Virus record (IMG/VR): IMGVR_UViG_3300045988_121885
Span: 1 to 35,317 of that record
DNA: 35,317 nt
Strand: one strand, 5' to 3'
From: a virus
Part shown: positions 11,394 through 28,302 of the stretch, piece by piece
Layout: each line of letters starts with the position of its first letter
How positions within the stretch are numbered: position 1 is the stretch's first letter
The notes under the pieces: model-generated
The model's database searches: none
Seen by the model: the letters and a program-made list of their open reading frames with translations, nothing else
Told to the model about the DNA's origin: nothing
Translations under genes and position numbers: made by a program

Positions 11394-14300
11394 TTAATTT
11401 GCTCGTCTGCGATTAAGAATTGTGATAGAATTTTGCCGTTTTTTGAAAGATAAATATTTTTGAGCGTACATTGCTATCACATCTATACTATCATCATAGG
11501 CATTGTGCGCCGTATATGAAAACGAGGTAAGGTACTTCATAAACTTGCCAAACTCTGAACCTTGCGCATATATCCCAAATTCCGGGAATACAATAGAAGA
11601 CTTTATGACAGCTTCATTATCATATATTTTATCCTCTTTATGCTTATAGCTATATACTTCCGTAATATTACAATAATCTATACCTCTTTCGTAAAGCATA
11701 CCGCGCAATAGTGTGGCAAGGCTTGTATCAGTGTTGCGCTCTATGTGCAATCGCGTAATGTGGTGCTGCTCTATTTTACGAATTATAGTAGGATATATCT
11801 TTTCCATAGGCTTCATTTCAAATATACAGTCTTTGAGATAATGTTTATCGCCTATGGGCAGACAAATAGCCATTGCTATATAGTTTGCGCCGGTACGCGC
11901 AGGGTCAAGCATAGCCCAACAGCTTTCCTCGTCTTTTTCTTCCTCAATATGTGGTATAGCCTTATATGTTAATAGATTATCATAGCTAAAAGCACAACCC
12001 TCAATAGGCATAGGCTCTTGCATATCCATAGCCATAAAAGTATTATAGTCGGCAAGTCTGTCAGCCCGAGCTTCCTCTGTGGTGTATTTATGCGGATATG
12101 TGCTTTCGTCAGTGTCCCAGTCAAGTTTAGGAACAGACACGAAAACTGCCTTATGCTGAGCATTAAACTTTGTGTATTTATTGATTTTACTCTGTTTAGC
12201 CGTATCACCGCCATATTTGCGCTTTATCGTAGACAGAAAGTCATAAATATGGTAGGTAGTGCCACTGAAAACCTCAAAACTGTTATTATCGTCATATTTT
12301 CGCTTTTTCCACTGGTCTTGATACCGCTCTATATCTTTTTCGTGCATATTGATATTGCCCTTGTCTTTTGACCGTGTAATATCATCGTAAAAGCGATATT
12401 TATATCGTCCACCGTCCACAGGGGTGTCTTTATTTGCCAATAGGAACGATGTGCCTTTAATACTTCCGTGGATAAGCAAGCGTGCCACTTGATTATTGCC
12501 ACCCTCACGCCGAACATCAAATATTTTGTCCTTATCACCCTCAAATTGAGCATAATATGGGAAAACCTTAGCATAATTAGGCTTGCACATATATTTTACC
12601 AATTTTGCGGACATATCGGTTATCAATGAGGGATTTCCAACTATTTTTAATACATCTGCGTTTATATCTATGCCAAATATATAGGATATTAGAACGGTAT
12701 CGGCATAGCTATTATGTGATACTACACCATTTGCAATGAAATTGTGCGTTTCTTCAACTTCAATGTCAACCATATCCGTTAGAGTTTCGTCAAATTCTAT
12801 GCTTTTTATCTTTTGCCATACAAAGTCATTTGAGACAACATCTTTAAGCAAACCTGTTTTTTCTGAAAATTCGTCAATCCATTGTTTTTTAAAAGATGAA
12901 GTTTTCGCCCAAGATTTATTTTTTATTTTCTTCAACTCTTTGCAATGACAAACAACGCTTTTAGGATAGTTTACATTGTTTGAATATGGCGGCATACTCT
13001 TTGAAAACAACCATTCAACTCTGTTTTTCAGATTTTCTTGCTTATGATAACAATAACAGTTTTTGTATAATTTGTTTATGAACTCATCGGGTATTGTAAG
13101 ATTGTAACAATCAAATGTTTTGCCCTCACACTTGCTTTTTCTATGACAATAATAAGAGTATATGCCACAAGTGCTTAAAAGTCTTTGTATGTCTTGTATA
13201 AGCCCCTCGTTAGCAAGCGATATTCCACAAGGGCTTTCACCTTTATTTATCCAACCGTCAGTAGCAAACATTATGCCGATAAATTTATATCTTTGTTTTA
13301 AACTCATTTCAAAAAACTGTTTAGGCAGTCTTTTGGTATAAGACAAATGATTTATAACGCCATAACGGGTAAGAACATCTGCCACTTTGCCATTTGCACT
13401 GTGTATTCTCACTTCGTACGCTTTTGAGGGGTGAGAAACACTATATGTTACGCCCCATTTATCAAGCACCGAAATAAATCTATCCAAAATTTCGTTCTTT
13501 TCTTTGATAAATCTAAATCTTGCCTGTTTGCAATGCCCATCAAAAATCATACAAGTGACAAAAAACAGTTCGTCTTCGTCAATTTCATAGCCATAATTCA
13601 ATGGCGAGCAGATTTCAAAAAGATAATCGCTAATGGTTATATCTTTACACATTTTATAACCTTTGTCGGTGTACAATCTATGCTCGGGACTGCAAATTAT
13701 CTCTTTGCCATTATTAAGCCTAATTTTGATTTGCTTTTTTTCTGTATTCCATTTATTCGTTATTCGCCTTACGACAGGTTTGTTTTCTTTCATAGAATAC
13801 ACAAAATCGCCAATATTAACATTTTTGATAGGTTTATAACCCTGTGTGGTTAAAATAGGCGTATCAGCTTTTAGGCACTTTCCATACCCGACTGGGCATT
13901 GTTTTTCAAGGTATTTCACAGTGCCGTCAAGCACCATTTTATCAGCATAATACCAAAATCCCTTAAAACAATTAAGGTTATATTTCCATACCTTGTCATT
14001 TTCAGGCATACCCCACTCCATATAAAGCGCAAAGTGTTCTATGTTGCGGAAAGCCGACAAAGCGTAAAAATTCTCGTACAATTTGCCGTATTCAGTATAA
14101 TTCTCTTGTAATTTCAGCAGCCGAGCCCTGTTTTCCTCGGTGAATTTCTCTTTTTTGAGTTTATCAGCCAAAACAGCCATTTTTTTCAGTTTATCACGCA
14201 ATGTAGGCAAAACAAATTTGCAGACATACTCAATATGCTTGCGGATTTCGTCCTCGCCCTCGTTATCACGCAACTGTGCCAAATAACCGTGTATCTGCGA

Positions 14301-14429
14301 ATGCATAGTGCGATATAAATTATCGCTGACAGCTAAAACATACTCGTCACTGTCTAAATACTTTGCATTTTTGCGCATTTCGCTAAATGCAACACAGCCT
14401 TCACGAACAATCTCGCCGATATTATCCAT
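11394..14429 (-). CDS. terL: Terminase large subunit precursor (622-aa extein plus 389-aa intein)
   Basis: The Walker A motif PVGYGK|S is split by the intein. Walker-B-like YRFYDDI, and nuclease-type acidic motifs AMLDPARTG and AYDDSIDVIAMY. Lies upstream of portal. RBS GGAGGTG 6 nt before the ATG. Confidence 0.9.
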   Translation of the reverse strand: MDNIGEIVREGCVAFSEMRKNAKYLDSDEYVLAVSDNLYRTMHSQIHGYLAQLRDNEGEDEIRKHIEYVCKFVLPTLRDKLKKMAVLADKLKKEKFTEENRARLLKLQENYTEYGKLYENFYALSAFRNIEHFALYMEWGMPENDKVWKYNLNCFKGFWYYADKMVLDGTVKYLEKQCPVGYGKCLKADTPILTTQGYKPIKNVNIGDFVYSMKENKPVVRRITNKWNTEKKQIKIRLNNGKEIICSPEHRLYTDKGYKMCKDITISDYLFEICSPLNYGYEIDEDELFFVTCMIFDGHCKQARFRFIKEKNEILDRFISVLDKWGVTYSVSHPSKAYEVRIHSANGKVADVLTRYGVINHLSYTKRLPKQFFEMSLKQRYKFIGIMFATDGWINKGESPCGISLANEGLIQDIQRLLSTCGIYSYYCHRKSKCEGKTFDCYNLTIPDEFINKLYKNCYCYHKQENLKNRVEWLFSKSMPPYSNNVNYPKSVVCHCKELKKIKNKSWAKTSSFKKQWIDEFSEKTGLLKDVVSNDFVWQKIKSIEFDETLTDMVDIEVEETHNFIANGVVSHNSYADTVLISYIFGIDINADVLKIVGNPSLITDMSAKLVKYMCKPNYAKVFPYYAQFEGDKDKIFDVRREGGNNQVARLLIHGSIKGTSFLLANKDTPVDGGRYKYRFYDDITRSKDKGNINMHEKDIERYQDQWKKRKYDDNNSFEVFSGTTYHIYDFLSTIKRKYGGDTAKQSKINKYTKFNAQHKAVFVSVPKLDWDTDESTYPHKYTTEEARADRLADYNTFMAMDMQEPMPIEGCAFSYDNLLTYKAIPHIEEEKDEESCWAMLDPARTGANYIAMAICLPIGDKHYLKDCIFEMKPMEKIYPTIIRKIEQHHITRLHIERNTDTSLATLLRGMLYERGIDYCNITEVYSYKHKEDKIYDNEAVIKSSIVFPEFGIYAQGSEFGKFMKYLTSFSYTAHNAYDDSIDVIAMYAQKYLSFKKRQNSITILNRRRAN
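12711..13877 (-). mobile_element. Class-1 intein with nested LAGLIDADG homing endonuclease, inserted in the terL P-loop
   Basis: - Cys1 (codon 13877-13875) follows GYGK.
- Block A CLKADTPILT; block B ICSPEHRLYT.
- LAGLIDADG-type motifs LFFVTCMIFDGHC and YKFIGIMFATDGWI.
- Blocks F/G MVDIEVEETHNFIANGVVSHN, with terminal Asn at codon 12713-12711 and +1 Ser.
- Removing the intein restores GYGKSYADTV. Confidence 0.9.
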
Positions 14430-14690: not shown

Positions 14691-14719
14691 ATTATATCAT
14701 ATCCATTATTCTTTGTCAA
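14691..14719 (-). promoter_or_regulatory. Promoter P1: TTGACA-17-TGaTATAAT, overlapping the 3' end of the 95-aa gene
   Basis: Minus strand: gagcTTGACAaagaataatggatatgaTATAATggc. Perfect hexamers plus an extended -10. Confidence 0.6.
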
Positions 14720-14993
14720 GCTCTAACAAAAACGCAACATTGCAAGCAATATGATACAAGTGCGGCAAGCCACTATCCTCATCAACCCCGTGTGGCTCTT
14801 TCAGCCATTTGCATATGTGCCGCATTAAAGCCGCTCTGTATCGCTTAGGGTCGACATTCTTATAACTGCCCTCGCCATATTTTTCAGCACCATGTGTCAT
14901 AACAACGCCCACAGCCTCTATTATCTCCGCAGGCACTAAATCCAACCTCGGCTTGCCACCGTCGTGCTTTAATCCGTCTGTAACAACATCCAT
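14706..14993 (-). CDS. Small nucleotide pyrophosphohydrolase-like protein (DUF5664 / dATP-dGTP diphosphohydrolase N-domain-like)
   Basis: Pattern KHDGGKPRLDLVP...GAEKYG...YRAALMRHICKW...DEDSGLPHLYHIACNVAFLLE matches my memory of that phage family. RBS GAGAGGTGG 7 nt upstream. Confidence 0.55.
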   Translation of the reverse strand: MDVVTDGLKHDGGKPRLDLVPAEIIEAVGVVMTHGAEKYGEGSYKNVDPKRYRAALMRHICKWLKEPHGVDEDSGLPHLYHIACNVAFLLELDKE

Positions 14994-15778: not shown

Positions 15779-16165
15779 ATGAAAACAAACAACAAAAAAG
15801 CGCGCGAGAACATACGCAAATATGTTATTGCAAACTTTACCCCGGAGGGCTACACGGACAACCCGCCGCAGGAGTTCCCCGAAATAGCCCGCTTTATTTT
15901 ATCCACTTTCAGAAATGAAAAATACAGCACCCCGGAAGACTTCCATTATTATCGAAATAACGAGCTTGTAGCGTTCGCGGATTGGTGCGCGGGGCTTTGC
16001 GGTGTTCTCGATACTTGTTATTTTTATAACCGTTACGCCGTTGATGACCTCGGCGCAATTCTTAAAGAAACAGAAGAAGAAAAAGCGCGCTATACAGAAG
16101 AACAAGCCGAAAATACATTAACTTTTTTAATTTATCGCGAGTTAATAAAAGGGGCTACAGAATAA
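15779..16165 (+). CDS. Hypothetical 128-aa protein, first substantial gene of the plus-strand cassette
   Basis: RBS AAGAGG 8 nt upstream. Its stop overlaps the next start (ATAATG). No motif recognised. Confidence 0.7.
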   Translation: MKTNNKKARENIRKYVIANFTPEGYTDNPPQEFPEIARFILSTFRNEKYSTPEDFHYYRNNELVAFADWCAGLCGVLDTCYFYNRYAVDDLGAILKETEEEKARYTEEQAENTLTFLIYRELIKGATE

Positions 16166-17157
16166 TGTATAACGGCGAACAATTGGCGCAGGCGCTGACC
16201 GTTTTCGGTCTGCCCTGCGTTTTTAAAGAAATGAAACAAACCCCACGAAATACAATATATTATTTTGATTTTACGGACTGGAACAAAGTCACAGCGGGCA
16301 GGCGCAAAACAGCACTTGACCGTCTTTCACTATATGCCGAACATCAATTTAATTATATTGACAGTAATATATCACATTTTGCAATATATCACGCTGAAGA
16401 CAATTATAGTATTGTCCCGCTTTTCGAACTTGCCTTGCCTGCTGATGATACATATAAATTCATCGCGGGCATAAACGAGGACGGCGGACAAGTCAATATT
16501 TCATTAGACGGAATGACGCATGCATTAATTGCAGGTACTACCGGCAGCGGTAAAAGCGTATTTTTGAAAAGCTTTTTATATTCTTTATTGACTACCAATA
16601 GCCCGAATAAAGTAAAATGTGCTATTATAGATAAAAAACGCAGTTTGAATTATTGGAGCAGGGCGGCGCACTGTCTCAAAGTCGTTAATGATGATATTTC
16701 GGCAATAACTTTATTAAATACTTTTCAAAAAGAAATGTATAACCGATATGAAGAATTGCGGCGGCGAGGACTTGAAAAAAATATCGGGTTGTTTCCTAAG
16801 TGGGTATTGATAATTGATGAATTGGCGGATTTAATGCTGACCGAGCGCAAAACAGAAATTGAAAGTAAACTTGTTTCGCTTTGTCAGCTCGGGCGCGCTG
16901 CTGGTATTCATTGCATATTATGCACCCAGTCGCCCCGCGTTGCCGTTGTCAGTGGTTTAATTCAGGCAAATACCCCGACAAAGATTATATTTAAAACAGC
17001 GAACACGCGGGAAAGCGTGTTGTGTTTGGGTCATTCGGGAGCGGAAAAGCTGCTCGGGAATGGTGACTGCCTTATAAAACTTCCCGATAAAGTAAAAGAT
17101 ATTAGAGTACAAACGCCATTTGCAACTGATGAAGATTTCAGAAACTGTATAGAATAG
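16165..17157 (+). CDS. FtsK/SpoIIIE-family ATPase (motor domain only, no TM or gamma domain)
   Basis: Walker A LIAGTTGSGKSVFL, Walker B WVLIIDELADLM, then LGRAAGIHCILCTQSPRVAVVSGLIQANTPTKIIFKTANTRESVLCLG...GNGDCLI. This is the canonical order of FtsK motor motifs. Confidence 0.85.
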   Translation: MYNGEQLAQALTVFGLPCVFKEMKQTPRNTIYYFDFTDWNKVTAGRRKTALDRLSLYAEHQFNYIDSNISHFAIYHAEDNYSIVPLFELALPADDTYKFIAGINEDGGQVNISLDGMTHALIAGTTGSGKSVFLKSFLYSLLTTNSPNKVKCAIIDKKRSLNYWSRAAHCLKVVNDDISAITLLNTFQKEMYNRYEELRRRGLEKNIGLFPKWVLIIDELADLMLTERKTEIESKLVSLCQLGRAAGIHCILCTQSPRVAVVSGLIQANTPTKIIFKTANTRESVLCLGHSGAEKLLGNGDCLIKLPDKVKDIRVQTPFATDEDFRNCIE

Positions 17158-17497: not shown

Positions 17498-17968
17498 TTA
17501 TTGTTCCGATGTGGCTTGTAGTTCGGCTTGCAGTCTCTCAAATACTGCTTGCCGGCTGATGTGATGTCTTCTTGCTATTTCCGATATATCGCCCCATATC
17601 GCTTTACCCTCTCTACGCATAAGAGCGGCTTTTTTTATTTCCTCGCATAGTTCCGCTTTTGGCGGTCGGGTTTTAATATTACAATAAGCATTTAAAGTAT
17701 ATCTCACATTATACCGAGATATATTTAATTTATGGGCTATCATATCAACATTATGCAGTCCGCTTTCCCACAAGGCTTTTATTTGCTCCTTGTTGGCTGT
17801 GCCGTCGTCGCTTACCGCTCTGCCTCGCCTTATTATTCCGCCGTTCGCCTTTATGGTATTGACAACATAATATCGCGATACTCCTACAATATCGGCGGTT
17901 CTTGTTACGGTATAGCCCTTATAATAACACATCATAATGTCGTCAATTTGATTTTGCGATAATTTCAT
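17498..17968 (-). CDS. DNA-binding protein with three HTH-like units
   Basis: HTH-like segments are GYTVTRTADIVGVSRYYVVNTIK, HNVDMIAHKLNISRYNVRYTL and ISEIARRHHISRQAVFERL. ATGA overlap with the upstream gene. Confidence 0.6.
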   Translation of the reverse strand: MKLSQNQIDDIMMCYYKGYTVTRTADIVGVSRYYVVNTIKANGGIIRRGRAVSDDGTANKEQIKALWESGLHNVDMIAHKLNISRYNVRYTLNAYCNIKTRPPKAELCEEIKKAALMRREGKAIWGDISEIARRHHISRQAVFERLQAELQATSEQ

Positions 17969-21708: not shown

Positions 21709-21799
21709 ATCCATTCTCCTTATATTTGATAAAGCCTTTGCCATAAATTTCATTCAGAACATCAAAACAATGCCCCAAGCCTAAACCTTTGCTATTTGG

Positions 21800-22756
21800 C
21801 TACCAAATGCCGTCATCGTTGTACTCGCCACCACCGATACAATATTCGTACTGCCGAGGATGTGTCTTCTTTAATCGTAACCAACGGCTTTCCTTTTCAA
21901 GGTGACACCCAAATCCGCAAAACATACACCCCGTGCGCTTGCACCCTGTTGTAGTCAGTTTCCCGTTGCAGTCCTCAAACATGGGCTGTTGCTCAAATAT
22001 TTCGTTCCCTGGCTTGATTATTTTGGATTCATCAACAATATCGCCGTAAACGCTTGCTATTGACAGGCTGTCCCGCTTTATGTACTGAAGAACATCCTGC
22101 TCTGTCCAAAAGGACATGGGCTTGCTCATAGGGCGTTTACTGTCGAAAGCATTACAGCCCGTTTTTAGCCAAGCATCAGTTCTGCGGTTACTCTCTTCAG
22201 CCAAGAGAGCTATAATTGGTTTTTTCTCCTTTTCCTTTTGGCGAATGGGCTTTTCCTTCATTTCGAGACAGCACCAATTTGATATGTTAAAATCGACATT
22301 TAGAAGAGGCGCATATTTAACATAACGCTTCCGAAATTGAGAAGGCTCACCATTTGTTTTCAAACCTTTTATTTTCTTGAGCCCAAATTCCGCCCCCTTT
22401 TTGCCATAATAAATCGTTTCCGCCACATCCTTGCTAATTATCGGATACCCGTATTTTTTGATAACCTCGTCAAATCTCATTTTGGGGTGAAGAATTGTAA
22501 CATTCTCAAAGGTTTTTACAAACTTCCGAATTTCGGGATATTCCAATCCCGTGTCAACGAAAACCGCCTCTATATTCGGATACAACTCTCGGACAATATG
22601 GAGCAACACCGTGCTGTCCTTGCCGCCCGAAAAGCTCACATAAACGCCGTCTGTGCCGTACTCCTTTACCCATTCTCGGATACGCGTTTTAGTCATCCCG
22701 ACCTTTACTTCAAGTGGCATAGCTTGAAAATATTTCAAATCTTCTCTTGAAGGCAA
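21800..22756 (-). CDS. PAPS-reductase / PP-loop ATPase family protein with a C-terminal Cys cluster
   Basis: PP-loop VSFSGGKDSTVLLH. C-terminal TGCKRTGCMFCGFGCHLE. TTG start 7 nt after GGGAGGG. Confidence 0.8.
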   Translation of the reverse strand: MPSREDLKYFQAMPLEVKVGMTKTRIREWVKEYGTDGVYVSFSGGKDSTVLLHIVRELYPNIEAVFVDTGLEYPEIRKFVKTFENVTILHPKMRFDEVIKKYGYPIISKDVAETIYYGKKGAEFGLKKIKGLKTNGEPSQFRKRYVKYAPLLNVDFNISNWCCLEMKEKPIRQKEKEKKPIIALLAEESNRRTDAWLKTGCNAFDSKRPMSKPMSFWTEQDVLQYIKRDSLSIASVYGDIVDESKIIKPGNEIFEQQPMFEDCNGKLTTTGCKRTGCMFCGFGCHLEKESRWLRLKKTHPRQYEYCIGGGEYNDDGIW

Positions 22757-23470: not shown

Positions 23471-23923
23471 TTACCTTTCTTTTTTATGCCTTTTTTTATG
23501 GCAACTTTTGCATAATGTGATAAGATTTTCGGGTTCATCACCCCCACCATTGCAAACAAATTTGATGTGATGAACATTAAGATTTCCGTTATCTATCGGA
23601 ATATAAATACCGTGTTCGTTTTTAAATGCGTTAAATTCTCCGCAATCTTGACAAGTGAAATTATCCCGGTAGAGTATTCGCAATGAATAACTGTCACGAC
23701 CTCTATTCCATACGGTCATATTATTAAACAATCTGCTACATTCTTCCGAGCAAAAAGATGTTCTTCTCCCGCTTAATTCTTTACCACACCACCTGCAATG
23801 TTTTGGTTTAACGTATTGAGGTTTACGAAAATATACCCTTTCGCCCCATTGCTTACTTGCTTCTGACATTGAAGGGAAAGGTCGTCTTGTCCCGTCCCTT
23901 TCCCAATATTTTTGGTACATCAT
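23471..23923 (-). CDS. HNH endonuclease
   Basis: HHIKFVCNGGGDEPENLITLCKSCHKKRH is the HNH motif. Additional Zn-ribbon cysteines: CRWCG, CSEEC, CQDCG. Confidence 0.85.
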   Translation of the reverse strand: MMYQKYWERDGTRRPFPSMSEASKQWGERVYFRKPQYVKPKHCRWCGKELSGRRTSFCSEECSRLFNNMTVWNRGRDSYSLRILYRDNFTCQDCGEFNAFKNEHGIYIPIDNGNLNVHHIKFVCNGGGDEPENLITLCKSCHKKRHKKER

Positions 23924-24123
23924 TCCTCACCCCCTTGCTCAAAAAATCTACAAGCAAAATCTTTTAATCTAATATCGGTTGCCGCACTGCCTGTTATACC
24001 CATTATTTTACACTTATAATGGCTATGCATACCGCATTGTAAATTTATGCAATATTTGCAATCTTTACATCTGTGATAAGTATCATATCCTGCACCCATT
24101 CTAAATTTACTTTTAATTGTCAT
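23920..24123 (-). CDS. Cys-rich hypothetical protein (~67 aa)
   Basis: CKDCKYC...C...C motifs. ATG at 24123-24121, 9 nt after GAGGA. Confidence 0.5.
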   Translation of the reverse strand: MTIKSKFRMGAGYDTYHRCKDCKYCINLQCGMHSHYKCKIMGITGSAATDIRLKDFACRFFEQGGEE

Positions 24124-27552: not shown

Positions 27553-28302
27553 TTAACTTATATCTTTCCCAAATAGTACCCTCAATATAGTATTTTCTAA
27601 TTGTTTAATAATATCCCCGCCGTAGGCATTTCGGGTTATGTCGATAAATTCTTGAACAGTAAACATATCGTGTTCGAGGTCATAGCCGCCATTTTTGACA
27701 AATGAATTTCTGCCCATTTTGCACGAGCCAGTCAGTCGATTATGCCAAAGATAAAAGTCTTTTGCAGGATATTTTTTGTTGAGGTCTGAAAATTCTTTGA
27801 GAAATAACTCAATAGCCTCGTCAGTGTCTATATCCTCAAAAATTTTATCTTCCAAATCTTTAAGCGCTTTTTCCAAAGTCTCGCCGTGCGCGAATTTGTT
27901 GTGTCCCTTGACTATATAACAGGGCGATAAACTTAAATCACTATTTAATATAAATCCTTTAGCAACATTGCCTTTAATATGTTTAATTACGGTAGGTATA
28001 CTATCAATTTGATAAACAATATCACCATTTATTGACTTTATGCCGTAGCCGTAGCCGTAGCCGTAGCCGGAGCCGTCGCCGGAGCCGTAGCCGTAGCCGT
28101 AGCCGGAGCCGGAGCCGTAGCCGTAGCCGGAGCCGGAGCCGTCGCCGGAGCCGTAGCCGTAGCCGTAGCCGTCGCCGGAGCCGTAGCCGGAGCCGTAGCC
28201 GGAGCCGGAGCCGGAGCCGTCGCCGGAGCCGGAGCCGTCGCCGTAGCCGGAGCCGGAGCCGTTGTTGACAGACAAAAATTCTTTTATTTTTACCTCTTCC
28301 AT
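27553..28302 (-). CDS. Hypothetical protein with an N-terminal (Gly-X)36 low-complexity domain and a globular C-terminal domain
   Basis: Residues 15-87 alternate G with S, Y or D without a single break. No motif recognised in the C-terminal 160 aa. Confidence 0.75.
   Translation of the reverse strand: MEEVKIKEFLSVNNGSGSGYGDGSGSGDGSGSGSGYGSGYGSGDGYGYGYGSGDGSGSGYGYGSGSGYGYGYGSGDGSGYGYGYGYGIKSINGDIVYQIDSIPTVIKHIKGNVAKGFILNSDLSLSPCYIVKGHNKFAHGETLEKALKDLEDKIFEDIDTDEAIELFLKEFSDLNKKYPAKDFYLWHNRLTGSCKMGRNSFVKNGGYDLEHDMFTVQEFIDITRNAYGGDIIKQLENTILRVLFGKDIS
28042..28260. repeat. Hexanucleotide microsatellite (GCCGNN)x36 encoding the Gly-X tract
   Basis: Only three plus-strand units occur: gccgta, gccgga and gccgtc. 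These give Tyr-Gly, Ser-Gly and Asp-Gly on the minus strand, with a single codon used per amino acid. Confidence 0.95.

What the first reader, a model, noticed from the sequence alone, without database searches (positions are those of the whole stretch)
12711..13877. 389-aa LAGLIDADG intein inserted exactly inside the Walker A P-loop of the large terminase
TerL reads ...EKQCPVGYGK | C LKADTPILT ... VVSHN | S YADTVLISY.... The insert begins with Cys and has a TxxH-like block B (SPEH). It carries two LAGLIDADG-type motifs (CMIFDGHC, IMFATDGWI) and ends His-Asn with a +1 Ser. Excising it recreates GYGKS, the GK[ST] of the ATPase P-loop, so packaging depends on protein splicing. Inteins in phage terminases are known, but each insertion site and homing-endonuclease pairing is a distinct mobile-element lineage. 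In this small genome it sits with a free-standing HNH endonuclease and a dead dcm gene.
Basis: partly seen in the sequence, partly recalled or inferred. Interest (0 to 1): 0.7.

Follow-up and report, generated by a model that had tools for sequence, protein, structure and literature searches.

The report
Homing intein splitting a phage terminase P-loop
The DNA-packaging enzyme gene of this uncultured gut phage is interrupted, exactly within its ATP-binding loop, by a self-splicing selfish protein element carrying its own DNA-cutting enzyme, which is a real but well-known kind of insertion.

Summary
The large terminase (TerL) precursor is 11394..14429(-), 1011 aa. Residues 185-573 (12711..13877) form a canonical class 1 intein: Cys1, SPEH block B, His-Asn end and +1 Ser. 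It carries a two-motif LAGLIDADG homing endonuclease. Intein and LAGLIDADG HMMs pass their curated cut-offs, and predicted folds match PI-PfuI, PI-SceI, VMA inteins and I-DmoI.

The strongest evidence is natural. Dozens of metagenomic TerL homologues, up to 99% identical, are 622 aa and read GYGK|S with nothing inserted. DNA alignment to one of them breaks exactly at the intein ends.

Related phages also carry this intein at the same site in full-length form. Four independently derived mini-inteins lack the endonuclease. One of these deletions lies between two 9-nt direct repeats that are still present in this window's copy. Endonuclease dN/dS is about 0.1-0.15, and the intein flank carries linked substitutions.

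Together this shows all stages of the homing cycle in one uncultured, probably Clostridia-infecting, gut phage lineage. An intein between the Walker A Lys and Ser/Thr of TerL is already described (mycobacteriophage TerL1-a, Kelley 2016). This is therefore a new member of a known kind, and interest is modest.

The parts
11394..14429 (-). Large terminase (TerL) precursor ORF, 1011 aa including the intein. The stop codon is at 11394-11396.
   Evidence: ORF list. The spliced extein matches phrog_38 terminase large subunit at E=2.9e-26 and PF22530 Terminase-T7 RNaseH-like at 33 bits against a cut-off of 27. The AF2 model's top Foldseek hits are the PhiV-1, T4 gp17, Sf6 and D6E TerLs.
13878..14429 (-). 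N-extein, TerL aa 1-184, ending ...QCPVGYGK (the Walker A Lys, K184).
   Evidence: G181, G183 and K184 are invariant in 17 diverse intein-free homologues.
13878..13898 (-). N-terminal part of the Walker A / P-loop (CPVGYGK). It is completed by the +1 Ser codon at 12708-12710 only after splicing.
   Evidence: The AF2 model shows strand 173-177, a loop, then helix 182-198. All 100 intein-free homologues in the list read QCPxG[YF]GK[ST].
12711..13877 (-). Intein, 389 aa (class 1; HINT splicing domain split by a LAGLIDADG endonuclease).
   Evidence: The blastn alignment to the intein-free relative L001 breaks at 13878 and 12705. Foldseek on the AF2 model finds the TliVMA intein at 9e-17, PI-PfuI at 5e-14 and PI-SceI at 4e-12. 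GC is 33.2%, lower than every one of 28 non-overlapping windows of the same size.
13668..13709 (-). Intein block B, GKEIICSPEHRLYT (S63-x-x-H66, a Ser variant of TxxH).
   Evidence: S63, P64, E65 and H66 are invariant in 6 intein copies. The same GKEIICS.EH block occurs in the solved gp41-1 intein, 6qaz, E=1.9e-10.
12858..13583 (-). LAGLIDADG homing-endonuclease domain plus linker (intein aa ~99-340). This is the segment missing from the mini-intein relatives.
   Evidence: Pfam LAGLIDADG_3. The model shows the alpha-beta-beta-alpha-beta-beta-alpha unit twice. I-DmoI matches with target TM-scores mostly 0.56-0.69. dN/dS is 0.10-0.15 between clades. The deletions in L002, L006, L009 and L010 map to this segment.
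13530..13568 (-). LAGLIDADG motif 1 (LFFVTCMIFDGHC; putative catalytic D113, which is Glu in the relatives).
   Evidence: Alignment A2. It forms helix 101-112 in the model.
13248..13286 (-). LAGLIDADG motif 2 (KFIGIMFATDGWI; putative catalytic D207, invariant).
   Evidence: Alignment A2. The Pfam LAGLIDADG_3 match covers residues 198-261. It forms helix 193-206 in the model.
13575..13583 (-). First copy of the 9-nt direct repeat ATTGACGAA (codons I99-D100-E101).
   Evidence: It is the left end of the 705-nt deletion seen in the 154-aa mini-intein allele L002.
12870..12878 (-). Second copy of ATTGACGAA (codons I334-D335-E336).
   Evidence: It is the right end of the same deletion. The blastn segments of L002 against the window meet at 13575 and 12874.
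12711..12776 (-). Intein blocks F and G (DMVDIEVEETHNFIANGVVSHN), ending with the penultimate His388 and Asn389.
   Evidence: TIGR01443 intein_Cterm scores 30.1 bits against a cut-off of 15.6. The block is invariant in 6 copies.
11394..12710 (-). C-extein, starting with the +1 Ser (AGC, 12708-12710). It holds the rest of the ATPase domain (a Walker B-like RFYDD and an SGTT motif) and the RNaseH-like nuclease domain.
   Evidence: The first two codons are AGC TAT here, whereas the 99%-identical intein-free allele has AGT TTT.

Best explanation
This is a class 1 intein carrying an in-frame, two-motif LAGLIDADG homing endonuclease. It is inserted between the Walker A lysine and serine of the large terminase of an uncultured gut siphovirus-like phage.

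Proposed mechanism, with each step marked as shown or inferred:
1. The 118-kDa precursor is translated as one chain. The single uninterrupted ORF is shown directly.
2. The HINT domain excises itself: Cys1 N-S acyl shift, transesterification to the +1 Ser, Asn389 cyclisation, then O-N shift. This is inferred from intact blocks A, B, F and G. Splicing joins K184 to S and recreates GYGKS, giving a 72.9-kDa TerL identical in layout to the natural 622-aa intein-free proteins (shown).
3. With 389 residues in the P-loop, the precursor cannot bind ATP. Packaging therefore depends on splicing (inferred).
4. The released 45.6-kDa intein is a site-specific endonuclease. During co-infection it cuts intein-free TerL alleles at the GYGK|S codons. 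Repair from the intein-bearing copy then copies the intein, plus a few flanking bases, into the empty allele (inferred from population data).

The element has co-diverged with this TerL family. In each clade it is polymorphic: empty, full-length or endonuclease-deleted. This pattern is the classical homing cycle.
For: Boundaries and family:
- Pfam Intein_splicing scores 2.6e-19 and LAGLIDADG_3 6.8e-7. TIGR01445 and TIGR01443 exceed their cut-offs.
- The HINT domain resembles the solved gp41-1 intein at E=1.9e-10.
- Foldseek on the AF2 model hits the TliVMA, PI-PfuI, PI-SceI and PI-TkoII inteins, and I-DmoI.

Host protein and site:
- The extein matches phrog_38 TerL at 2.9e-26. Foldseek top hits are TerLs.
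- The model shows a strand-loop-helix at residues 173-198. G181, G183 and K184 are invariant.

Empty alleles:
- 100 of the 120 best homologue clusters are intein-free and read GYGK[ST]. Many are 98-99% identical to the spliced product.
- The DNA alignment to one of them (L001) breaks exactly at the intein ends.

Same intein, same site, in TerL clades 80, 76 and 54% identical and in still more distant TerLs. Identity of the intein core tracks extein identity.

Endonuclease under selection:
- dN/dS is 0.10-0.15.
- Both acidic LAGLIDADG residues are conserved.

Recent spread and linked flank:
- Between the window and L003, the first 1000 nt of the intein differ by 0.7%, against 3.1% for the exteins (Fisher p=1e-5).
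- All four intein-bearing alleles of the closest clade read S-Y (AGC TAT) after the intein, whereas 27 of 27 empty ones read S-F (the one empty allele examined as DNA, L001, has AGT TTT).
- The mini-intein allele L002 carries just these two changes and is then identical to the empty allele for 850 nt.

Decay stage: four independent in-frame endonuclease deletions have microhomology at their junctions (9, 6 and 2 nt for three of them). One lies between repeats still present in this window.

Precedent: TerL inteins in the P-loop splice and cleave intein-free partner alleles in mycobacteriophages (PMC5050341).
Against: - No splicing or cleavage was observed. Both are inferred from sequence.
- The Walker A assignment rests on a predicted structure and on conservation. 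No residue-level alignment to a solved TerL ATPase domain could be obtained by sequence. The PDB profile search found nothing, and hhalign to T7 gp19 aligned only the nuclease domain.
- The motif starts with Cys rather than the consensus Gly/Ala.
- The intein model has moderate confidence (pLDDT 69), and residues 296-354 are unmodelled.
- dS is saturated in most comparisons between clades, so the dN/dS values are rough.
- The linked S-Y/S-F flank could reflect shared ancestry of the few intein-bearing alleles rather than co-conversion. Only one empty allele was examined at the DNA level.
Confidence: 0.9

Rival explanations
1. The intein still splices, but its endonuclease is no longer active. 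This copy would then be an immobile passenger on its way to becoming a mini-intein, and the present/absent pattern would reflect ordinary phage recombination rather than homing.
For: Endonuclease loss is common in this very family: four independent deletions, and 15 of the 19 intein-bearing clusters listed are mini-inteins. This copy holds the two 9-nt repeats that mediated one such deletion. Its first LAGLIDADG acid is Asp where the other five aligned full-length copies outside its own clade have Glu. No activity data exist.
Against: The reading frame is intact and both catalytic acids are present. dN/dS is 0.10-0.15 over the endonuclease domain across clades, and 0.09 against its closest relative. 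Intein DNA is less diverged than the surrounding extein between two intein-bearing phages, as expected if the element still moves.
Confidence: 0.2
2. The intein has been co-opted as a conditional switch. Splicing, and with it terminase ATPase activity and packaging, would be gated by a signal such as redox state.
For: The intein blocks the P-loop, so activity is strictly dependent on splicing. The intein has co-diverged with the TerL family over a long period. It is Cys-rich, with 15 Cys in 389 aa. An invariant extein Cys lies at position -7 (QCPVGYGK|C). Regulatory roles for P-loop inteins have been proposed in the literature (PMC4760082 and PMC5050341).
Against: Most relatives, including 99%-identical ones, do without the intein, so it is dispensable. 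The -7 Cys is invariant in intein-free proteins too, so it is not an adaptation to the intein. The presence/absence/decay pattern is what a purely selfish element produces. No condition-dependence was tested.
Confidence: 0.07
3. It is not a mobile element at all. It would instead be a lineage-specific non-splicing insertion domain of TerL, an assembly chimera, or an intron with a homing-endonuclease gene misread as coding sequence.
For: None beyond the absence of experimental data.
Against: The same 1011-aa architecture was assembled independently in several samples (L003, L004, L005, L007 and L008). All splicing blocks are present and invariant. The insert is in frame with no stop codon. No Rfam family, including group I and II introns, matches anywhere in the window. 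An insertion of 389 residues between the Walker A Lys and Ser would be incompatible with nucleotide binding if it were not removed.
Confidence: 0.01

Closest known systems
Mycobacteriophage TerL1-a/-b P-loop inteins (Kelley et al. 2016, mBio, PMC5050341)
   Same: These are inteins in the ATPase domain of a phage large terminase. TerL1-a lies between the invariant Walker A Lys and the following Ser/Thr, called the 'classic' P-loop insertion. They are sporadic among close relatives. Representative TerL inteins of that study (sites b, c, e, f and g) were shown to splice, and the b and c inteins to cleave intein-free partner alleles.
   Different: The terminase family is different: Terminase_1 of actinophages, against a phrog_38 TerL with a T7-type nuclease domain here. 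No detectable sequence similarity was found: tblastn of the precursor against 50,697 phage records listed no Mycobacterium phage among the top organisms. The host setting also differs, being gut and probably Clostridia. Nothing here has been tested experimentally.
gp41-1 intein (metagenomic cyanophage-like DnaB-type helicase; PDB 6qaz; Dassa et al. 2009, PMC2677866)
   Same: This is the closest solved splicing domain by sequence (E=1.9e-10). It shares the same block B with Ser in place of Thr (GKEIICSEEH against GKEIICSPEH) and the same C-terminal ...HNF.AN....HN.
   Different: gp41-1 is naturally split, has no in-frame endonuclease, and sits in a helicase rather than a terminase.
PI-SceI / PI-PfuI / TliVMA (bifunctional intein-LAGLIDADG endonucleases with solved structures)
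   Same: The two-domain architecture is the same: a HINT domain interrupted by a single-chain, two-motif LAGLIDADG endonuclease. These are the top Foldseek hits (9e-17 to 4e-12).
   Different: Identity is only 11-18%. Their hosts are archaeal or yeast, and their exteins are V-ATPase or RNR. The region linking the endonuclease to HINT-C (residues 296-354) is not confidently modelled here.
Twort-like Staphylococcus phage UvsW-helicase intein (for example Quidividi gp119)
   Same: It is also inserted between the Lys and Thr of a Walker A motif (TNGGK|C...HN|T) and carries a LAGLIDADG-type endonuclease. It is among the best hits in cultured phages.
   Different: Identity is 22-24%, and the extein is a helicase. 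The best cultured-phage hit, the Pectobacterium phiTE helicase intein, is not in a P-loop at all: it reads GHK|C...HN|CQG, a helicase motif.

Membership tests
Class 1 intein (HINT splicing domain) | N-terminal nucleophile (Cys/Ser/Thr) at intein position 1 | tested here: met
   Cys1 is present and invariant in 6 full-length and 4 mini copies.
Class 1 intein (HINT splicing domain) | Block B TxxH motif | tested here: met
   S63-P-E-H66 is invariant. Ser replaces Thr, as it does in the solved gp41-1 intein.
Class 1 intein (HINT splicing domain) | Block F/G with penultimate His and terminal Asn, followed by a +1 Ser/Thr/Cys | tested here: met
   The sequence reads ...THNFIANGVVSHN|S. TIGR01443 scores 30.1 bits against a cut-off of 15.6.
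Class 1 intein (HINT splicing domain) | Profile match above curated thresholds | tested here: met
   PF14890 scores 70 bits against 35.8. TIGR01445 scores 32.1 against 24.5.
Class 1 intein (HINT splicing domain) | In-frame insertion absent from orthologues, whose sequence is continuous across the site | tested here: met
   100 intein-free homologue clusters read GYGK[ST]. The DNA alignment to L001 breaks at the intein ends.
Class 1 intein (HINT splicing domain) | Autocatalytic protein splicing | not testable with these tools
   This needs expression followed by SDS-PAGE or mass spectrometry. Indirect support: intein-bearing phages recur in many samples, and TerL is essential.
LAGLIDADG homing endonuclease (single-chain, two-motif) | Two LAGLIDADG helices, each ending in a conserved acidic residue followed by Gly | tested here: met
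   FVTCMIFD113G and IGIMFATD207G. The first acid is Asp or Glu and the second is an invariant Asp in 6 copies.
LAGLIDADG homing endonuclease (single-chain, two-motif) | Profile match and alpha-beta-beta-alpha-beta-beta-alpha fold, twice | tested here: met
   PF14528 scores 29.9 bits against 22.5. The secondary-structure order in the AF2 model fits, and Foldseek matches I-DmoI with target TM-scores mostly 0.56-0.69. The model has moderate confidence (pLDDT 69).
LAGLIDADG homing endonuclease (single-chain, two-motif) | Site-specific cleavage of the intein-free allele, and homing | not testable with these tools
   Only indirect evidence is available: purifying selection, intein DNA less diverged than extein DNA, and linked flank substitutions.
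Phage large terminase (TerL) | N-terminal ATPase plus C-terminal RNaseH-like nuclease, with matches to terminase profiles and structures | tested here: met
   phrog_38 matches at 2.9e-26 over residues 78-613. PF22530 matches. Foldseek finds 8dgc_E PhiV-1 TerL at 3e-15, T4 gp17, Sf6 gp2 and D6E. The gene lies next to an SPP1-type portal gene.
Phage large terminase (TerL) | Insertion point lies in the Walker A motif, G/AxxxxGK[ST], at a strand-loop-helix | tested here: inconclusive
   The GK[ST] is invariant and located at strand 173-177 / loop / helix 182-198 of the model. A Walker B-like RFYDD follows at 290-294. However, the first position is Cys rather than Gly/Ala, and no residue-level superposition on a solved TerL ATPase was available.

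The most novel reading that the evidence does not exclude
The intein is more than a parasite. Because it sits in the P-loop and has co-diverged with this TerL family, its splicing could be conditional and act as a checkpoint that times DNA packaging. Conditional control might involve its many cysteines and the invariant Cys at extein position -7.

A milder variant is that the S-F (AGT TTT) empty alleles, which dominate the closest clade, are cleavage-resistant target variants. That would imply an ongoing arms race between the endonuclease and the P-loop codons.
Probability: 0.08. Interest if true: 0.55.

Novelty: new member of a known kind. Interest (0 to 1): 0.3.

Why it matters
Inteins in terminase P-loops are textbook selfish elements, so this adds no new principle. 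It has three practical uses.

1. Annotation. The 1011-aa ORF should be annotated as a TerL precursor plus an intein. Phylogenies or clustering based on TerL must use the spliced 622-aa sequence.

2. A natural series of the homing cycle. One uncultured gut phage family shows empty sites, full-length inteins and four independent endonuclease deletions, with near-isogenic backgrounds up to 99% identical. This could be used to measure homing, co-conversion tract length and endonuclease decay in metagenomic time series.

3. Possible reagents. The 133-177-aa natural mini-inteins, related to the fast gp41-1 intein, and a new LAGLIDADG specificity are possible protein-engineering tools.

Tried and rejected
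- Plus-strand reading of the given coordinates: it is all stop codons, and the feature is on the minus strand.
- Megablast of the locus against 50,697 phage genomes: no match.
- tblastn of the precursor against the same phages: it hit only inteins in helicases, not the terminase. The spliced TerL finds only relatives at 27% identity or less (20-27%).
- Residue-level proof of the Walker A assignment by sequence. A profile of 17 homologues against all PDB sequences gave no terminase hit. hhalign against T7 gp19 aligned only the nuclease domain, with probability 0.5. The assignment therefore rests on the AF2 topology, conservation and whole-chain Foldseek hits.
- The idea that the best cultured-phage hit (the phiTE helicase intein) shares the P-loop site: rejected. 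It sits at GHK|CQG, a different helicase motif.
- Global pairwise identities for mini-inteins against full-length inteins were distorted by the deletion gap. They were replaced by an ungapped HINT-core comparison. This showed that each mini-intein derives from its own clade's full-length intein.
- A simple test of horizontal transfer, with the intein much more similar than the extein between clades: largely negative. Intein and extein divergence track each other; only the most distant clade differs (63-67% for the intein against 52% for the extein). Between-clade jumps are not supported.
- A group I/II intron or other RNA element: no Rfam hit and no tRNA in the window.
- The 'dead dcm' gene: there is no PCQxFS motif in six frames, and no DNA_methylase family hit among the 20 ORFs scanned against Pfam.
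- A second intein-only homologue search did not return the known close copies. It did add more distant TerL inteins at the same site.
Full report
**1. What is in the sequence**

The given coordinates translate to nonsense on the plus strand. On the minus strand they give an uninterrupted 389-aa stretch, CLKADTPILT...FIANGVVSHN. This stretch is embedded in one 1011-aa ORF, 11394..14429(-). In that ORF the insert occupies residues 185-573, which is exactly 12711..13877. The junctions read ...EKQCPVGYGK | C...SHN | SYADTVLISY.... Removing it leaves 622 aa reading GYGKS. The computed masses are 118.5 kDa for the precursor, 72.9 kDa for the ligated exteins and 45.6 kDa for the intein.

**2. It is an intein with a LAGLIDADG endonuclease**

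- Pfam Intein_splicing matches the insert at E=2.6e-19 (70 bits, cut-off 35.8). LAGLIDADG_3 scores 29.9 bits (cut-off 22.5).
- NCBIfam intein_Nterm scores 32.1 against 24.5, and intein_Cterm scores 30.1 against 15.6. Both pass.
- All class 1 landmarks are present: Cys1; block B S63-P-E-H66; blocks F/G DMVDIEVEETHNFIANGVVSH388N389; and +1 Ser. They are invariant in six full-length copies from different phage clades.
- The closest solved splicing domain by sequence is the gp41-1 intein (6qaz, E=1.9e-10). It has the same Ser-containing block B.
- An AlphaFold2 model of the intein has mean pLDDT 69, with residues 296-354 unmodelled. It shows a beta-rich HINT domain interrupted by two alpha-beta-beta-alpha-beta-beta-alpha units.
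- Its best Foldseek matches are the TliVMA intein (9e-17), PI-PfuI (5e-14), PI-SceI (4e-12) and PI-TkoII. For the endonuclease part it matches I-DmoI with target TM-scores mostly 0.56-0.69.
- The two LAGLIDADG helices end in D113-G and D207-G. The first acid is Glu in the other clades, and the second is an invariant Asp.

**3. The host protein is a large terminase and the site is its P-loop**

- The spliced sequence matches PHROG 38 (terminase large subunit) at E=2.9e-26 over residues 78-613. It also matches the T7-type terminase RNaseH-like nuclease domain.
- The gene lies directly upstream of an SPP1-type portal gene in the window and in all relatives.
- An AF2 model of the 99%-identical natural intein-free protein has pLDDT 76.8. 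Its top Foldseek hits are TerL structures: PhiV-1 (8dgc_E, 3e-15), T4 gp17, Sf6 gp2 and D6E.
- In the model, residues 173-177 form a beta-strand, 178-181 a loop, and 182-198 a helix. GYGK184-S185 therefore sits exactly where a Walker A motif should.
- G181, G183 and K184 are invariant across 17 diverse homologues. A strand ending in RFYD293D294 (Walker B-like) and an SGTT motif follow.
- Caveats: I could not obtain a residue-level alignment to a solved ATPase domain by sequence, and the motif starts with Cys rather than Gly/Ala. I rate the P-loop assignment as very likely but not formally proven.

**4. Natural intein-free alleles are the decisive test**

A search with the spliced sequence returned 651 homologues. 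I classified the best 120 cluster representatives at the site QCPxG[YF]GK:

| State | Clusters |
|---|---|
| Intein-free, reading GYGK[ST] | 100 |
| Full-length intein (389 aa) | 4 |
| Mini-intein (133, 143, 154 or 177 aa) | 15 |
| Fragment lacking the site | 1 |

- Twenty-seven intein-free proteins are at least 95% identical to the window's exteins, many of them 98-99% identical.
- At the DNA level, the window aligns at about 94-96% with the genome of one such phage (L001). The alignment breaks at 13878 and 12705, so the 1167-bp insert is the only difference there.
- Independent assemblies from several samples carry the 1011-aa form, which rules out a chimera.
- No Rfam family, including group I and II introns, matches the window.

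**5. Population picture: a complete homing cycle**

- The same intein sits at the same site in TerL clades that are 80%, 76% and 54% identical to the window's. Related inteins occur at this site in even more distant TerLs.
- An ungapped comparison of the HINT core groups the inteins exactly as the exteins group. Each mini-intein is 95-98% identical to the full-length intein of its own clade. The endonuclease was therefore lost at least four separate times.
- The deletion junctions differ, and three of them show microhomology:
  - 705 nt lie between two copies of ATTGACGAA. Both copies are still present in this window's intein, at 13575-13583 and 12870-12878.
  - 738 nt lie between TTTTGT repeats.
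  - 636 nt have a TG overlap.
  - One rearranged 768-nt deletion completes the set.
- All mini-inteins keep blocks A, B, F and G.
- Where synonymous divergence is not saturated, the endonuclease domain has dN/dS 0.10-0.15 between clades and 0.09 within the clade. This argues that full-length copies encode a working enzyme.
- Between the window and another intein-bearing phage (L003), the first 1000 nt of the intein differ at 0.7% of sites, against 3.1% for the exteins (Fisher p=1e-5).
- In the closest clade, all four intein-bearing alleles read Ser-Tyr (AGC TAT) immediately after the intein. All 27 empty alleles read Ser-Phe (the one empty allele examined as DNA, L001, has AGT TTT).
- The mini-intein allele L002 carries just these two changes and is then identical to the empty allele for the next 850 nt.
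- AGCTATGCCGA(T/C) is also the flank in the 80% clade.
- This looks like a very short co-conversion tract travelling with the intein. Shared ancestry, or selection on the +2 residue, cannot be excluded from one empty-allele DNA sequence.
- Intein GC is 33.2%, against a window mean of 38.3%, and is lower than any of 28 non-overlapping segments of the same size.

**6. Mechanism**

Shown directly:
- a single in-frame precursor ORF;
- intact splicing blocks;
- an intact two-motif endonuclease under purifying selection;
- an exact empty site in close relatives;
- decay products in relatives.

Inferred from established intein chemistry and from homing-endonuclease biology:
- the four-step splicing reaction that joins K184 to S and restores the P-loop;
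- inactivity of the unspliced ATPase;
- cleavage of empty alleles at the GYGK|S codons during co-infection, followed by recombinational copying of the intein.

Direct precedent exists. Mycobacteriophage TerL inteins in the ATPase domain splice efficiently and cleave intein-free partner alleles. The TerL1-a site lies between the invariant Walker A Lys and Thr, described there as a 'classic' P-loop insertion (PMC5050341). Terminases are noted as common intein targets in phages (PMC4760082). A 2025 survey counts 293 TerL inteins in actinophages (bioRxiv 10.1101/2025.01.02.630785).

**7. Comparison and novelty**

In how it works, this is the same as the TerL1-a-type P-loop inteins and the PI-SceI/PI-PfuI class of bifunctional inteins. 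In membership, it meets every sequence and fold criterion for a class 1 intein and a two-motif LAGLIDADG endonuclease. The activity criteria cannot be tested here.

It is not a close relative of any described intein. The best matches among 50,697 phage genomes are helicase inteins at 22-26% identity. One of these (Twort-like UvsW) is also at a GK|T site, while the top hit (phiTE) is at a different helicase motif.

The phage itself is uncultured:
- Related contigs are 40-42 kb and come from gut metagenomes.
- More distant TerL relatives fall in Clostridia metagenome bins.
- The window encodes an Amidase_2 endolysin, an SSB, a weak below-threshold RecT-family match, an ERCC4 nuclease and a resolvase-type recombinase.

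Verdict: a new member, in effect a new intein lineage or 'allele', of a well-known kind.

**8. Scores**

The finding is real and well supported, but a specialist would not be surprised. Its added value lies in annotation, in a tidy natural series of homing-cycle stages within near-isogenic gut phages, and possibly in compact mini-inteins for engineering. Interest is 0.3.

The most novel reading not excluded is conditional splicing as a packaging checkpoint, or an arms race at the P-loop codons. Its probability is about 0.08.

Noticed in passing
window 23471..23923 (-): A free-standing HNH endonuclease gene (150 aa; Pfam HNH E=8.6e-10). It has no tblastn match in any of the related loci fetched (L001-L010), so it appears to be a variable, possibly mobile, gene in this phage group. 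The lowest-GC 1167-nt stretch of the window starts just beside it, at 23994.
   Followed up: partly
window 21722..22756 (-), stop codon at 21800-21802: The PAPS-reductase-like gene carries an in-frame TAG where a relative (L010) has Lys (...GEYNDDGIW*PNSKGLGLGH...). This cuts off the last ~26 residues. The homology continues past the stop codon, and relatives encode 394-398 aa. It is either a nonsense mutation or a sequencing error.
   Followed up: partly
There is no PCQxFS cytosine-methyltransferase motif in any of the six frames, and no DNA_methylase family hit among the 20 ORFs scanned against Pfam.
   Followed up: partly
window 27553..28302 (-): A 249-aa ORF whose first ~90 residues are an extreme Gly/Ser/Tyr/Asp low-complexity repeat (GSGSGYGDGSGSGDGSG...GYGYGYG), followed by an ordinary-looking C-terminal domain. 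It has no Pfam or PHROG match.
   Followed up: no
window 12816..12990 (-), intein residues ~296-354, and intein Cys274/Cys276/Cys312: The segment linking the endonuclease to the C-terminal splicing region is not confidently modelled (pLDDT <50). Invariant cysteines lie just before it and within it (NCYCYHKQ ... CKEL). The intein has 15 Cys in 389 aa. This could be a metal site or a DNA-recognition region, and it is unexplained.
   Followed up: no
window 16165..17157 (+) and 14706..14993 (-): An FtsK/SpoIIIE-type ATPase gene lies on the opposite strand, between the packaging genes and the replication genes. A small dATP/dGTP pyrophosphohydrolase-like gene lies just upstream of TerL. No obvious small-terminase gene sits next to TerL. 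A 156-aa HTH protein at 17498..17968(-) is a possible candidate.
   Followed up: no
P0109-P0120 / L010 against P0119 / L008 (the 54%-identity clade): In this clade the 133-aa mini-intein is much more widespread among cluster representatives (10 clusters) than the full-length form (1 cluster). The first residues after Cys1 vary among the mini copies (CSHP, CESP, CGHP, CQSP), which suggests relaxed constraint there.
   Followed up: no
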